Below are positions 1,252 to 8,997 of a stretch of 39,855 nt of DNA, in pieces. Position 1 is the first letter of the stretch; each line of letters begins with the position of its first letter. Both the position numbers and the translations under genes were made by a program. The notes beneath the pieces were generated by a model. The model searched no databases, was not told the DNA's origin, and saw only the letters and a list, made by a program, of their open reading frames with translations. The stretch comes from Clostridium sp. (GTDB lineage Bacteria > Bacillota > Clostridia > Clostridiales > Clostridiaceae), in NCBI GenBank assembly GCA_017383505.1, contig JAFNXG010000184.1, positions 1 to 39,855 of the forward strand, written 5' to 3'.

Positions 1252-1283
1252 AAAAGGCTAATACATATAGTACTTAGCCTTTT
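1252..1283 (-). terminator. Intrinsic terminator closing the urease-amt-ureI unit
   Basis: AAAAGGCTAA...TTAGCCTTTT inverted repeat just downstream of the ureI stop, with U-rich tail. Confidence 0.75.
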
Positions 1284-1297
1284 GTTCATTTATATTT

Positions 1298-1810
1298 TTA
1301 TTTTGGATACATATTTAATAATATTAATGCACCTGGAATCCACGCTGTAACAATACCATCAAAAATTGATAAGTACGGTGTAAATTTACCTAAGTCTTTA
1401 TTTAATACTAATTCAATAAATCCTGTTAACCATAATAGTCCCCATAGAAGCCATATAATCATCCAATAGATATTTCCTACAGTAAAATCAATAAATCTTA
1501 AGGTATTAGAATCAATAAATGCTAATGGTACTGTATTGATCGCTACAAATAAACAATACCATCCATATAATCTTAAATCTAAATTAAATATATTGTTTGC
1601 TGCGATATATAAATAAGTAAATCCAAATAGTAATCCAGTTGCAGCTGCAAAATAATCTCCTCTAACTGCTGCTACTACATTTAAAATAAATGATAGACTT
1701 CCAGTAAAAACATTAAATACAGCTAAAGATTTACCATTTACATTATAAAGTCTTCCTATTCCATTTAAAATAAGTACAACTCCTACATAAATTAATATTT
1801 CACCTAACAT
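1298..1810 (-). CDS. ureI: AmiS/UreI family urea channel
   Basis: MLG..L.YVG..L..NG start; FN.FTG, LLFGFTYLY, YGWYCLFVAIN, W..WG.LWLT.F.E and TAWIPG motifs; about 6 TM helices; located in a urease cluster. Confidence 0.9.
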   Translation of the reverse strand: MLGEILIYVGVVLILNGIGRLYNVNGKSLAVFNVFTGSLSFILNVVAAVRGDYFAAATGLLFGFTYLYIAANNIFNLDLRLYGWYCLFVAINTVPLAFIDSNTLRFIDFTVGNIYWMIIWLLWGLLWLTGFIELVLNKDLGKFTPYLSIFDGIVTAWIPGALILLNMYPK

Positions 1811-1848
1811 ATTAGGCCTCCTTTAATATTTGATAAGACATAAAATTT

Positions 1849-3051
1849 CTAATCTAGCTTAGTTTCAAAATTCTCGTCAAAGAATTCTTTATCTAATCCT
1901 TTTCTTTGAATTTCTTCACTTACTTTAATAGATTTAGTCTTATCTACTAATTTAAATATTAAGAATGTTAGTAAAATAGAGTAAACTGCAATTAAAACTG
2001 CTCCAAAAAGTTGAATTAAGAACTGACGTATTCCTGCACTAACTCCATTTACACGAGGATCTGCAAATACTCCTATTAGTAATATACCTAGAAATCCTCC
2101 AACTCCATGCACTCCCCATACATCTAGTGCATCATCCCATTTTTTTCTTTCAAACTCAACACAGAAGAAGCATACTACAGCCCCTAAGACCCCTATAATT
2201 AATGCACTTATAGGAGTTATATATCCTGATGCTGGTGTTACTGTAGCAAGACCTGCTATTGCGCCTACTAATGCTTCTAAGAATGATGCTCTTTTAGCGT
2301 GTCTTGCATGTAACATTAACCAAACTACCATTCCAGATGCTGCTGCAAGACCAGTGTTTGTAAATACTATTGCCGCAATATCTGCTGCTGCAATTGTACC
2401 TCCTGCATTAAATCCAAACCATCCAAATAGTAATAATCCTGCACCAATTGCAACTAATCCTAAGTTGAAAGGACCCTTTTCATTCTTAACTTTTCTTGAT
2501 CCAATGACATAAATTCCACCTAAACACCCAAAGCCAGATGTTATGTGTATGGTTGCTCCTCCAGCAAAATCAACAAATCCTAGTTTACTAAGGAATCCTC
2601 CTCCCCAAACCCAATGCGCTACCGGAAAGTATACCAATATAATCCAAAGTATCAAAATTTTTATCCATCCACTTACTGTTAATCTATTTGCAAATGCTCC
2701 AGTCATTAATGGTGCAGTTATAATTGCGAACATCATTTGATACATAAAGAATAATATAAATGGTATTGTTTCACTATATCTTAAATCCACTGTAAATGTC
2801 ACATCTCTTAAAGCAAAGAATTGAAGTGGATTTCCTATTACTCCACCAATATCATCACCAAATACTAAACTAAATCCTCCAAATACCCATATTATTGCTA
2901 CTATTCCTATTGCTATAAATACTTGAAACATTATAGTTAATGTATTTTTTCTTTCAACTAAACCACCGTAAAAAAATGCCAATCCCGGGGTCATAATTAA
3001 AACAAGCACTGTAGACAATATCATAAATGCTACGTCACCATGAATAATCAT
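1849..3051 (-). CDS. amt: Ammonium transporter (Amt family)
   Basis: MTPGLAFFYGG, HWVWGGG, DFAGG..IH, GWFGFNAG and DD.LDVWGVHG motifs; twin His present. Confidence 0.95.
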   Translation of the reverse strand: MIIHGDVAFMILSTVLVLIMTPGLAFFYGGLVERKNTLTIMFQVFIAIGIVAIIWVFGGFSLVFGDDIGGVIGNPLQFFALRDVTFTVDLRYSETIPFILFFMYQMMFAIITAPLMTGAFANRLTVSGWIKILILWIILVYFPVAHWVWGGGFLSKLGFVDFAGGATIHITSGFGCLGGIYVIGSRKVKNEKGPFNLGLVAIGAGLLLFGWFGFNAGGTIAAADIAAIVFTNTGLAAASGMVVWLMLHARHAKRASFLEALVGAIAGLATVTPASGYITPISALIIGVLGAVVCFFCVEFERKKWDDALDVWGVHGVGGFLGILLIGVFADPRVNGVSAGIRQFLIQLFGAVLIAVYSILLTFLIFKLVDKTKSIKVSEEIQRKGLDKEFFDENFETKLD

Positions 3052-3097
3052 AGAATCACTCCTTAATTTTTCATTTGATTATTTTAAAATAAAATAT

Positions 3098-3946
3098 CTA
3101 ATATTTTCTTATAATTAAATCTTTAGATTCTAAGAATTTTTTTCTTATATAATTATGACAAGCCCCCGTTACCTGCTCTATATGTTGTGTTAAGTTTCCT
3201 AATACTCTGAGAACAAACCCATTAACCTCTAATTTTGATATTCCAAAATCTACAGGCAAATTTAATTTTATAATTATTTCTCTTAACTCCTCTATAACTT
3301 TATTGTCTATATTTTTATTAATAACTAATAAAGTTCCAAAGTTTAAGTATTCTTCAAAAAAACCCATTTTAGTTACATCATTATCATTAGGATTAACAAT
3401 TAAATTATCTAATAACACCAACTTTTTATTTAAATATACATTGCTTTTTAATTGCACACTATTATACTTAAAACTCTCACCCTCCGGAGACCATCCAGAA
3501 GTAATTCCATCAATATAAATTAATGTAGCGCTATCATCTAAATAAATATTATTAACTTGTTTATAAATTGCATCCTTATACATAATAACGTTATCCGCTA
3601 TATATTCTAAAACACTATTTTTCCCCAACTCTATTACTGTCTCTTGTTGTGTTTTTATATTATTTAGACATTTATATACTTTAGCTGCAGCTTGAGTAGT
3701 TATTATAGCTCTTGTATCATCCTTTAATTTAAATATATTTTTATACTTTTCTCCTTCAATATACCCGCCTCCAAGTTGTAATAAATAAAATGTAGGTATA
3801 TTTTCCCTATCCATTTTAATAGTTGGAGATACTTTTACTAATCCTTGATAAAATTTTTTAGTTGCAATTGTTTTATCATTTTTTTTCTCTAATATTAATT
3901 CTATAAATCCAGAATATTCATTCTTAACTTTTGCTTCTTTAAACAT
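3098..3946 (-). CDS. ureD: Urease accessory protein UreD
   Basis: GGGYIEGE, IITTQAAAKVYK and GWSPEG motifs; follows ureG. Confidence 0.93.
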   Translation of the reverse strand: MFKEAKVKNEYSGFIELILEKKNDKTIATKKFYQGLVKVSPTIKMDRENIPTFYLLQLGGGYIEGEKYKNIFKLKDDTRAIITTQAAAKVYKCLNNIKTQQETVIELGKNSVLEYIADNVIMYKDAIYKQVNNIYLDDSATLIYIDGITSGWSPEGESFKYNSVQLKSNVYLNKKLVLLDNLIVNPNDNDVTKMGFFEEYLNFGTLLVINKNIDNKVIEELREIIIKLNLPVDFGISKLEVNGFVLRVLGNLTQHIEQVTGACHNYIRKKFLESKDLIIRKY

Positions 3947-3947
3947 A

Positions 3948-7550: not shown

Positions 7551-7885
7551 TACTTTTCACCGCTCCCTTTTGACATTCCATCTAAAAATCCATCACACAT
7601 ATTTCTAATTCCGTAAACTCTTCTATATCCGCCGATATCAATTAAATTTACTTCCTTTTTATCACCAGGTTCAAATCTAACAGCTGTTCCTGAAGGGATA
7701 TCTAATCTTTTTCCCCACGCTGCATTTCTATCAAAACTTAAAGCATCATTTACTTCATAAAAGTGATAATGTGAACCTATTTGTACTGGTCTATCTCCAG
7801 TATTTACAACTTGCATTTTTATTGCTTCTTTTCCTGCATTATATTGAATATTTCCTTCTTGTACTTTTATTTCACCTGGTACCAT
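7550..7885 (-). CDS. ureB: Urease subunit beta
   Basis: [15 protein letters not shown] and [18 protein letters not shown] 7885 after GGAGG; TAATG overlap with ureC. Confidence 0.98.
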
Positions 7886-7898
7886 GCTAAATTCCTCC

Positions 7899-8201
7899 TT
7901 ATTTAATTGGTTCATGTACTGTTACTAATTTTGTTCCATCAGGGAAAGTACATTCAACTTGAACAGTATGAATCATATCTGGAATACCTTCCATTACATC
8001 ATCTTTTGATAAAATAGTAGTTCCATAATCCATTAACTCTTCAACTGTTTTCCCTTCTCTAGCTCCTTCTAACATTTCATCTGTTATTATTGCCATAGAC
8101 TCAGGATAATTTAACTTTAATCCCTTGCTTTTTCTTTTACGAGCTACATCAGCCGCAACAGAAATCAATAATTTCTCTTGTTCTCTAATTGTTAAATGCA
8201 A
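7899..8201 (-). CDS. ureA: Urease subunit gamma
   Basis: GLKLNYPE and [15 protein letters not shown] start with AAGGAGG RBS. Confidence 0.98.
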
Positions 8202-8235
8202 AATAAATTCCTCCTTTTTTTCTAAATAAATATAA

Positions 8236-8264
8236 AATCTATTTACTCATATTATTTTTTTCAA
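8236..8264 (-). promoter_or_regulatory. Candidate sigma-A promoter directly upstream of ureA
   Basis: TTGAAA-17-TAGATT; AT-rich background lowers significance. Confidence 0.45.
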
Positions 8265-8289
8265 ATTTATAAATTTTATTCCTATTTTT

Positions 8290-8997
8290 TTATTCATTAA
8301 AAGTAACATTTCCATTTAAGTCATAATAAGCTCCTACAACTTTTACTTTACCTTGAGCTATTAATTCCTTAACTATATCATCCTCTGAAACTTCTTTTAC
8401 TACATAATCAATATTATTATGTATTGCATCATCAATTGTTCCATCCTTATTTACATTAGGTTCTATCTTTTCAACAAATGATTCCATATGTCCTGTAGCA
8501 TTTTCCCCTTTTACAACTTGATTATATGTTGCTGTTACTGCACCACAGCTTTGATGCCCCATTACAACTATTAATGGTGTATTTAAATGTTCAACAGCAT
8601 ATTCAATTGAACCTAAAGCATCATCATCTACAACATTTCCAGCAAGCCTTATATCAAATATCTCTCCCAATCCTGCATTAAATACTGCAGTAGGAGTTAC
8701 TCTTGAATCTGAGCATGATACTATTACTGCATATGGGTTTTGACCTTCTTTTAAAGCATCTCTTCTTTCCTGACTTACATTTCTTAGTACGGATGTATCT
8801 GTTACAAATCTTTGATTACCATCTTTCAACATTTGTAATGCTTCATCTGAAGATGATACTTCTGTCTCAACAACCACTATTTCAGCTACACTTTGATTAT
8901 TTGTTGCATCTTTTGTTGTATTATTTGATGTACTATCTCCACAGCCAACTAAAAGCAAAGTACTAGTAACTAATGCTGTTATTAATTTTTTCTTCAT
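8290..8997 (-). CDS. Beta-class carbonic anhydrase, predicted lipoprotein
   Basis: CSDSRV (CxDxR), AGN, GSIEYAV and GHQSCGAV (HxxC); N-terminus MKKKLITALVTSTLLLVG-C (lipobox LVGC) then an S/T/N-rich linker. Confidence 0.93.
   Translation of the reverse strand: MKKKLITALVTSTLLLVGCGDSTSNNTTKDATNNQSVAEIVVVETEVSSSDEALQMLKDGNQRFVTDTSVLRNVSQERRDALKEGQNPYAVIVSCSDSRVTPTAVFNAGLGEIFDIRLAGNVVDDDALGSIEYAVEHLNTPLIVVMGHQSCGAVTATYNQVVKGENATGHMESFVEKIEPNVNKDGTIDDAIHNNIDYVVKEVSEDDIVKELIAQGKVKVVGAYYDLNGNVTFNE

What the first reader, a model, noticed from the sequence alone, without database searches (positions are those of the whole stretch)
1252..8997. Self-contained urea/NH3/CO2 module: surface lipoprotein beta-carbonic anhydrase + ureABCEFGD + Amt + UreI
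Seen: ten co-oriented genes bounded by the exoA terminator and a terminator after ureI, with no obvious terminator hairpin between the anhydrase and ureA. Known: Helicobacter pylori acid acclimation couples UreI and cytoplasmic urease with a separately encoded periplasmic alpha-CA. Inference: this locus assembles an analogous circuit in a Gram-positive anaerobe from partly different parts. Urea enters via UreI and is hydrolysed, ammonia passes through Amt, and escaping CO2 is hydrated at the outer membrane face. That would make an NH4+/HCO3- buffer in the cell wall, or drive carbonate/struvite mineralisation. I do not recall this four-part operon being described, but cannot verify novelty.
Basis: partly seen in the sequence, partly recalled or inferred. 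Interest (0 to 1): 0.8.

Follow-up and report, generated by a model that had tools for sequence, protein, structure and literature searches.

The report
Surface carbonic anhydrase heads urease operon
In one group of gut Clostridium species, a gene for a predicted surface-anchored carbonic anhydrase leads a urease operon that also holds a urea channel and an ammonium channel, and gut RNA data cover the set as one block, so it likely works as a one-operon, Gram-positive counterpart of the urea-based acid buffering known from Helicobacter pylori.

Summary
The ten genes are real and intact: lipoprotein beta-carbonic anhydrase (CA), ureABCEFGD, amt, ureI, on the minus strand between two terminator hairpins. 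The same order occurs in 14 of 123 scored genomes of the genus, all close kin. Named relatives include C. celatum, C. disporicum, C. saudiense and C. cuniculi. Thirteen share a promoter-like motif before CA. Metatranscriptome contigs from three studies cover about 1288-9030 as one block, a weak hint of co-transcription. Ammonia export is better supported than nitrogen scavenging. The Amt lacks GlnK and the S1-site serine, while a separate Amt-PII fusion beside glutamine synthetase keeps that serine in 4 of 4 relatives. Against: urease+amt+ureI without CA is common and partly published; the CA link fits a single recruitment; the exported CA is broken in 2 of 14; CA homologues stand alone in 8 genomes without a urease hit; no nickel importer lies in the block. 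Verdict: a real, apparently undescribed variant of urease acid-acclimation clusters. The CA's role is inferred, not shown.

The parts
9227..9273 (-). exoA terminator hairpin; upstream boundary
   Evidence: z -9.1
9053..9086 (-). Conserved 34-bp promoter-like motif (ATGAATA...ATATTATA) about 55-90 bp before the CA start; sigma factor or regulator unknown
   Evidence: once per genome in 13 of 130 genus genomes, each time before the operon CA; columns mostly 70-100% conserved against about 40-60% in the upstream flank; RNA contigs end at 9027-9038, just downstream
8290..8997 (-). Lipoprotein beta-carbonic anhydrase, 235 aa; lipobox Cys19, Thr/Asn-rich linker, C95-x-D97-x-R99 and H148-x-x-C151
   Evidence: PF00484 130.7 bits; nearest solved chain 2a5v, E 9e-34; motifs
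7899..8201 (-). ureA, urease gamma subunit (TTG start)
7550..7915 (-). ureB, urease beta subunit
5835..7550 (-). ureC, urease alpha subunit; H138, H140, K221, H250, H276, D364 present (their role as Ni ligands is recalled)
   Evidence: TIGR01792 991 bits, cut-off 680; positions
5353..5829 (-). ureE, nickel chaperone with a short His tail
4662..5381 (-). ureF (start codon uncertain)
4584..4627 (-). 20-bp AT-rich hairpin between ureF and ureG with no U tract on the mRNA strand; possible processing, stabilising or partial-termination element
   Evidence: z -5.5; z <= -3 in the 105 bases after ureF in 11 of 13 relatives
3948..4568 (-). ureG GTPase (true start probably the ATG at 4559)
   Evidence: TIGR00101 over cut-off; ribosome site
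3098..3946 (-). ureD
1849..3051 (-). Amt ammonium channel without GlnK; twin His and Phe gate kept, Gly218 where E. coli AmtB has Ser219
   Evidence: TIGR00836 over cut-off; alignment to AmtB; residues
1298..1810 (-). UreI urea channel, short Gram-positive type; R20/E133 pair kept, no histidines, long first outer loop of HpUreI absent
   Evidence: PF02293; alignment to 6nsj/3ux4
1252..1283 (-). Hairpin after ureI; downstream boundary
   Evidence: z -3.4; RNA contigs of two studies stop at 1288, one run reads on into the amidase

Best explanation
This is a conserved urease operon of gut Clostridium species, likely one transcript, that likely serves pH homeostasis rather than nitrogen feeding: urea would enter through UreI, urease would split it to ammonia and CO2, the GlnK-free Amt would let surplus ammonia out, and the predicted surface carbonic anhydrase would hydrate the escaping CO2 just outside the membrane. 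Ammonia would first take up protons inside the cell. Outside, CO2 hydration would give an ammonium/bicarbonate buffer near pH 6 in the wall. The proton released would also trap exported NH3 as NH4+, keeping the outward gradient and limiting over-alkalinisation. Shown: gene content, order, intact motifs, conservation, the shared upstream motif, block-shaped RNA contig cover and the separate nitrogen-type Amt. Inferred: single transcript, lipidation and surface location, direction of Amt flux, acid gating, and any need for the CA.
For: (1) All 14 genomes whose full-length UreC is >=91% identical to the window's (window included) carry CA-ureABCEFGD-amt-ureI in this order. (2) The unit keeps its upstream motif whether exoA (9 of 13 relatives) or other genes precede it. 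An Opp/Nik-type ABC cluster lies directly upstream in 4 relatives, in one of them inserted between exoA and CA. (3) RNA contigs from three studies cover about 1288 to 9027-9038. Pieces span the whole CA-ureA gap in 4 of 4 runs. A control stretch of the same genome has almost no cover, so the signal is not general DNA. (4) In 4 of 4 near-complete relatives tested, a second Amt fused to PII lies directly after a type III glutamine synthetase and keeps the S1 serine. The operon Amt has Gly there in 14 of 14, and so do 20 of 21 other Amts from the loci fetched. Of 82 motif-bearing Amt ORFs from the metagenome loci, 81 have Ser. S219 is part of the scavenging site, and S219A raised flux in AmtB (PMC10433425, passages). 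(5) The same Amt type follows glutaminase and a ClC exchanger in Cetobacterium somerae, that is, another ammonia-making enzyme. (6) UreI keeps the Arg-Glu pair that gates S. salivarius UreI by pH (bioRxiv 10.64898/2025.12.08.692916, abstract and passages). (7) The Amt of an amt-cax-CA cassette in other genus members is sister to the operon Amt (support 100), so Amt and a CA gene stay linked in two arrangements. (8) Urea helps C. sordellii and Blautia grow in acid (PMC4462011 passages; PMC12001548 abstract and passages).
Against: The 14 operon CAs form one side of a branch (SH-aLRT 94, quick tree), so the 14 cases count as one event. Among 22 family genomes outside the genus that hold both a CA homologue and ureA, none has them within 10 kb. 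Among 72 more distant CA loci none has urease genes in the fetched flank. Of 31 fetched urease loci with amt, 18 lie outside the clade, and only one of those 18 has a CA nearby, so these clusters persist without a linked CA. In G100 the signal and linker are deleted, and in G143 a frameshift follows the lipobox (either could be an assembly error). CA homologues stand alone in 8 genus genomes with no UreC hit. The R20/E pair is also in 20 of 24 other UreI proteins, so it is not special here. A Gram-positive wall has no outer membrane to hold a buffer. The nearest solved relative (2a5v, recalled as M. tuberculosis Rv3588c) is recalled to be active only at alkaline pH; that paper was not held. 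C. perfringens urease is reported as expressed only under nitrogen limitation (as cited in PMC5598433), although its plasmid cluster has the same Amt type. The runs were chosen for holding this stretch, and contigs cannot prove one transcript.
Confidence: 0.55

Rival explanations
1. The CA is a passenger. A free-standing clostridial surface CA landed once in front of an ordinary ure-amt-ureI cluster and now shares its promoter without a role in the urea response.
For: One origin; free-standing homologues in many contexts; 0 of 22 family genomes outside the genus link the two; export signal lost in 2 of 14.
Against: 12 of 14 keep an intact lipobox-bearing CA while identity falls to 63%. The operon-specific motif lies before CA, not before ureA. 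The related Amt travels with a CA in a second arrangement.
Confidence: 0.18
2. Nitrogen salvage. Host urea is split for ammonia, Amt recaptures NH3 that leaks out, and the CA supplies protons to hold it as NH4+ near the cell.
For: Amt proteins usually import. C. perfringens urease responds to nitrogen limitation, as cited in PMC5598433. Twin His and Phe gate are intact.
Against: A dedicated GS-III-linked Amt-PII fusion exists elsewhere in 4 of 4 relatives; it was not found in the 60%-complete own genome. The operon Amt lacks GlnK and the S1 serine. The conserved motif holds only a half GlnR-type site (consensus from PMC4888889, compared by eye).
Confidence: 0.15
3. Sporulation-linked operon. 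The motif is a sigma-G or sigma-E promoter and the module conditions spore or mother-cell pH, or loads the spore for germination.
For: The motif reads ATA-N18-CATATTAT, matching the mother-cell -10 box given in PMC3789822. A recalled strict sigma-G pattern matches 8 of 14 CA leaders, 0 of 38 other CA leaders, and only 8 of 1747 own-genome leaders. Those 8 include ytxC and a gene I read as cwlD by eye.
Against: The spacer is as conserved as the boxes, which fits a regulator site better. The first -10 base varies in 5 of 13. None of the 17 SASP or 5 spoVT leaders printed matched the strict pattern, so it is a poor test. One relative has a plain TATAAT in its place.
Confidence: 0.06
4. Surface mineralisation. 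Urease, CA and calcium or ammonium export drive carbonate or struvite deposition on the wall.
For: An amt-cax(Ca2+/H+ exchanger)-CA cassette occurs in G023 and G145, and in G141 split across two contig ends. In G023 it abuts the urease cluster.
Against: The window's own cax gene is unlinked. G023's ureC carries an internal stop. A Ca2+/H+ exchanger fits pH control equally well. No benefit of minerals is evident.
Confidence: 0.06

Closest known systems
Helicobacter pylori acid acclimation (UreI + cytoplasmic urease + periplasmic alpha-CA; model as summarised in PMC5469174, passages)
   Same: Urea channel, cytoplasmic urease, and an exported CA placed to turn CO2 into bicarbonate outside the membrane.
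   Different: Here the CA is beta-class, predicted lipid-anchored and inside the urease gene block. An Amt is included. There is no outer membrane. UreI lacks histidines and the long first outer loop.
Clostridial ure + amt (+ ureI) clusters: Romboutsia ilealis CRIB_1381-1389 (PMC5598433), C. sordellii (PMC4462011), C. perfringens plasmid pSXP-169 amt-ureI-ureABCEFGD-cbiM
   Same: Same urease gene set with ureI and/or an Amt; the plasmid Amt has the same Ser-to-Gly change.
   Different: No CA in the plasmid cluster, and none mentioned in the two papers' main text (their supplementary figures not opened). The plasmid carries a cbiM-type metal importer.
Streptococcus salivarius urease operon (PMC4888889; bioRxiv 10.64898/2025.12.08.692916)
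   Same: Gram-positive, acid-induced urease with a short UreI gated by an Arg-Glu pair that is kept here.
   Different: No CA or Amt recalled in that operon; regulated by CodY, VicR and GlnR boxes, which are not matched in full here.
Beta-CAs of the 2a5v / PRK15219 type (names Rv3588c and Mig-5 are recalled)
   Same: Best structural and NCBIfam matches; same zinc motifs.
   Different: Below the PRK15219 cut-off (126 against 221 bits); carries a lipoprotein signal and a Thr/Asn linker.
AmtB-GlnK nitrogen-scavenging module (PMC10433425)
   Same: Amt fold, twin His, Phe gate, D160 equivalent.
   Different: No GlnK partner, S1 serine replaced by glycine; relatives keep a separate Amt-PII fusion with glutamine synthetase.

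Membership tests
beta-carbonic anhydrase (PF00484) | Profile score over cut-off; Cys-x-Asp-x-Arg and His-x-x-Cys motifs | tested here: met
   130.7 bits, cut-off 25.7; C95/D97/R99, H148/C151
beta-carbonic anhydrase (PF00484) | Zn-dependent CO2 hydration and its pH range | not testable with these tools
   needs enzyme assay
Bacterial lipoprotein | Basic N-terminus, hydrophobic stretch, lipobox Cys | tested here: met
   LVGC19, mean hydropathy 2.2; simple pattern, no dedicated predictor run
Bacterial lipoprotein | Lipidation and surface exposure | not testable with these tools
   needs fractionation or shaving
Nickel urease cluster | ureABC plus ureDEFG with active-site residues | tested here: met
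Nickel urease cluster | Nickel importer in the cluster (common, not universal) | tested here: not met
   none in the block; an Opp/Nik-type ABC lies directly upstream in 4 of 13 relatives, substrate unverified
H. pylori-type acid acclimation system | UreI channel plus cytoplasmic urease | tested here: met
H. pylori-type acid acclimation system | Periplasmic histidine loops on UreI | tested here: not met
   no His in the protein; loop gap against 6nsj; cytoplasmic R20/E133 pair present instead
H. pylori-type acid acclimation system | Alpha-class CA in a periplasm bounded by an outer membrane | tested here: not met
   beta-class; Clostridium relatives are Gram-positive (established knowledge)
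H. pylori-type acid acclimation system | Acid-induced expression and urea-dependent acid survival | not testable with these tools
   needs culture
AmtB-GlnK scavenging module | Linked or fused GlnK/PII | tested here: not met
   PII hits only in the separate fusion
AmtB-GlnK scavenging module | S1 site F107/W148/S219 | tested here: not met
   F108 and W149 kept, Gly218 in 14 of 14
AmtB-GlnK scavenging module | Twin His, Phe gate, D160 | tested here: met
Sigma-G/sigma-E sporulation regulon | Promoter consensus and spacing | tested here: inconclusive
   matches, but bona fide SASP and spoVT leaders fail the same strict pattern
Sigma-G/sigma-E sporulation regulon | Expression with spore genes | tested here: inconclusive
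   contig data cannot rank genes

The most novel reading that the evidence does not exclude
Common gut clostridia carry an undescribed one-operon ammonia-excretion and pH machine. A dedicated export-type Amt (no GlnK, no S1 serine) is chemically coupled to a surface beta-CA that supplies protons to trap ammonia. This would be a bacterial parallel to the Rh-plus-CA acid trapping recalled from animal epithelia, and a convergent Gram-positive rebuild of Helicobacter acid acclimation that is switched on in the animal gut.
Probability: 0.3. Interest if true: 0.75.

Novelty: new variant of a known kind. Interest (0 to 1): 0.5.

Why it matters
If true, it shows that a surface CA helps urease-based pH control even without a periplasm, which can be tested with clean knockouts in culturable commensals. 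It also names a testable Amt subfamily (Ser219 to Gly, no GlnK, beside urease or glutaminase) as a candidate bacterial ammonia exporter, a role usually linked to Rh proteins. RNA contigs about 99% identical to this stretch occur in cattle-labelled and other gut samples, so these clostridia may be overlooked ureolytic players in gut nitrogen recycling and ammonia release. If the CA proves to be a passenger, what remains is an ordinary clostridial urease cluster.

Tried and rejected
Sporulation control: I laid the same four RNA runs on an own-genome contig with a SASP gene. The SASP gene had no cover in X2 and X3, faint cover in X5 and some in X1, while trigger factor and clpP were covered in all four. 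This leans against sigma-G control, but lack of contig cover is weak, so it is listed only here. Regulon search: a weight matrix of the motif found no second site above shuffle level in the own genome or the fetched loci, and the pattern search found one site per genome. NikR, CcpA, CodY, Spo0A and MerR readings were compared by eye with recalled consensus sequences and fitted poorly; GlnR and VicR boxes (PMC4888889) match one half-site only. Single-sequence structure prediction of the CA failed (pLDDT 36) and was not used. The class-wide ureA search gave only 4 of 399 genomes, too few to test linkage; I did not examine the two hits outside the family for CA. An order-level search with one genome was wasted. 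The plasmid search with the CA listed only distant proteobacterial hits in the 30 of 917 rows shown. The metagenome scan with Amt gave one close relative, without urease or CA, and none of 78 loci held either. The careful CA tree did not finish; the quick tree is cited. No complex prediction was run, as no binding is claimed. Five primary papers were not held. Three look-ups of earlier scan findings gave nothing on this locus.

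
Full report
Observation. The window holds ten intact minus-strand genes from 8997 to 1298: a beta-carbonic anhydrase (CA), ureA, ureB, ureC, ureE, ureF, ureG, ureD, amt and ureI. Upstream lies exoA with a strong terminator at 9227-9273. Downstream is a hairpin at 1252-1283 (z -3.4), then an amidase gene. 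The CA-ureA gap does not fold better than shuffles, here or in 13 relatives (none at z -3). A 20-bp hairpin between ureF and ureG does, here and in 11 of 13 relatives. Shared orientation carries little weight, since most of the window reads on the minus strand. The block has no nickel importer, so it is not fully self-contained.

The proteins. The CA has a lipobox at Cys19, a Thr/Asn linker and both beta-CA zinc motifs. Its nearest solved relative is 2a5v. UreC keeps the residues recalled as nickel ligands. UreI is the short type with no histidines and without the long first outer loop of the H. pylori channel. It keeps R20 and E133, the pair reported to gate S. salivarius UreI by pH (bioRxiv 10.64898/2025.12.08.692916; abstract and passages), as do 20 of 24 other UreI proteins fetched. 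The Amt keeps the twin His and Phe gate but has Gly218 where E. coli AmtB has Ser219.

Distribution. In the genus, 30 of 123 scored genomes have a CA homologue and 42 of 123 a UreC match; 7 genomes per search were not scored. Twenty-two have both. In 14, the window included, CA sits directly before ureA, and these are exactly the genomes with full-length UreC of 91% or more. All 13 relatives show the full order. Named records with the module include C. cuniculi, C. saudiense, C. disporicum and C. celatum (8 of 80 loci); none of the other 72 loci has urease genes in the fetched flank. Eight genus genomes have the CA without a UreC hit, and none of them has it beside exoA/glyA. In a draw of 401 family genomes, 22 outside the genus have both genes and none within 10 kb (my tally from the tables). 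The operon CAs fall on one side of one branch (quick tree, support 94), so this is one recruitment, not fourteen. In G100 the signal and linker are missing, and in G143 a frameshift follows the lipobox.

The part without CA is common. Of 56 urease loci I fetched (a selection, some overlapping), 31 hold amt. Eighteen of these lie outside the clade, and 10 of the 18 also hold ureI. A C. perfringens plasmid has amt-ureI-ureABCEFGD and a cbiM-type importer but no CA. Romboutsia ilealis has an ammonium transporter beside its urease cluster (PMC5598433, passages). A second arrangement, amt-cax-CA, occurs in G023 and G145 and, across two contig ends, in G141. Its Amt is sister to the operon Amt (support 100). 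In G023 it abuts the urease cluster, whose ureC has an internal stop. So Amt and a CA gene stay linked in two layouts, although the two CAs are not sisters in the tree and the layouts may share an origin.

Promoter and RNA. A 34-bp motif at 9053-9086 precedes CA. It occurs once per genome in 13 of 130 genus genomes, all in the clade, whatever gene lies upstream. The pattern was built from these same sites, so the telling result is its absence elsewhere. It resembles sporulation sigma promoters (PMC3789822 and PMC7438776, passages; their promoter tables were not opened), but the conserved spacer points to a regulator site, and the test was inconclusive. Eight of 23 listed runs, metatranscriptomes of three studies labelled bovine gut, bovine or gut, hold 82-90% of the stretch's words. 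In the four runs laid, contigs about 99% identical cover a block from about 1288 to 9027-9038, with much less cover on the exoA side. Two studies stop at 1288, while one run reads on into the amidase. Pieces span the whole CA-ureA gap in all four runs, but reach only 12-26 letters into ureA; in two runs the next piece overlaps by 30 letters. A control stretch had almost no cover, so DNA carry-over does not explain the block. The runs were chosen for holding this stretch, no DNA run was laid, and contigs give no strand or level. This is a hint of one expressed operon, not proof.

Export or scavenging. In 4 of 4 near-complete relatives tested, a second Amt fused to PII follows a type III glutamine synthetase and keeps the serine. 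It was not found in the own genome, which is 60% complete. The glycine form is in 14 of 14 operon Amts and 20 of 21 other Amts from the loci fetched, but in 1 of 82 Amt ORFs from metagenome loci. The serine belongs to the site thought to serve scavenging, and its loss raised flux in AmtB (PMC10433425, passages). In Cetobacterium somerae the same Amt type follows glutaminase and a ClC exchanger. This pattern fits a release valve beside ammonia-making enzymes; direction was not measured.

Mechanism. Most likely (0.55): urea enters through UreI as the cell acidifies, urease yields two NH3 and one CO2, NH3 takes up protons, surplus leaves by Amt, and the surface CA equilibrates CO2 and bicarbonate at the membrane face. 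That would buffer near pH 6, as modelled for H. pylori (PMC5469174, passages), and trap NH3 as NH4+. Urea-dependent growth in acid is reported for C. sordellii (PMC4462011, passages) and Blautia (PMC12001548, abstract and passages). Rivals: CA as passenger (0.18), nitrogen salvage (0.15; C. perfringens urease is cited as nitrogen-regulated), sporulation link (0.06), mineralisation (0.06).

Novelty. Searches combining urease, carbonic anhydrase, Clostridium, operon, ureI, ammonium transporter and the species names listed no title or abstract opening that describes a CA inside a urease operon. I saw only the top rows where lists were long. I read CA passages in three papers; none described such a link. 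The library lacks most subscription papers, five primary papers were not held, and supplements, including the R. ilealis cluster figure, were not opened. It works like H. pylori acid acclimation by inference, but fails membership (beta-class CA, no periplasm, no His loops). I file it as a new variant of clostridial urease clusters, interest 0.5.

Noticed in passing
L037:14720-17690 (G023), L045:4358-7391 (G145), L044:39-1304 plus L340 (G141): amt - Ca2+/H+ exchanger (TIGR00378) - lipoprotein CA cassette; in G023 it converges on a urease cluster and sits beside a YjeM-type amino-acid transporter.
   Followed up: partly
window 1849-3051; L251, L252, L253: An Amt subfamily with Gly at the AmtB Ser219 position and no GlnK recurs beside urease and, in Cetobacterium, beside glutaminase; candidate ammonia exporters.
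   Followed up: partly
L332-L335: Amt fused to a PII domain (556-569 aa) directly after type III glutamine synthetase in four relatives.
   Followed up: partly
L183, L185, L194, L195; L038, L336-L338: Tandem duplicated urease clusters in genomes of a neighbouring genus (g66). Four clade genomes carry a second urease cluster with an extra 81-aa UreE-like ORF, three of them seen with an Opp/Nik-type ABC cluster.
   Followed up: no
L162-L173: Genus g66 genomes often hold two exported beta-CA paralogues, some with an uncleaved-looking N-terminal anchor instead of a lipobox, none beside urease.
   Followed up: no
window 16217-17649: hemZ-like radical SAM gene is split by a frameshift into 365-aa and 109-aa ORFs; may be an assembly error.
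   Followed up: partly
window 31541-33064: YjeM (GadC-like) glutamate/GABA-family transporter, 74% identical to the one beside the amt-cax-CA cassette in G023.
   Followed up: no
window 501-1289: Amidase_3 gene after ureI; true start probably near 1229. It follows the operon in 11 of 13 relatives (split in one), and one RNA run reads into it.
   Followed up: partly
G003, G135: In these two 99%-complete relatives the exported CA is the only PF00484 match, so no cytoplasmic beta-CA was found with this family search.
   Followed up: no
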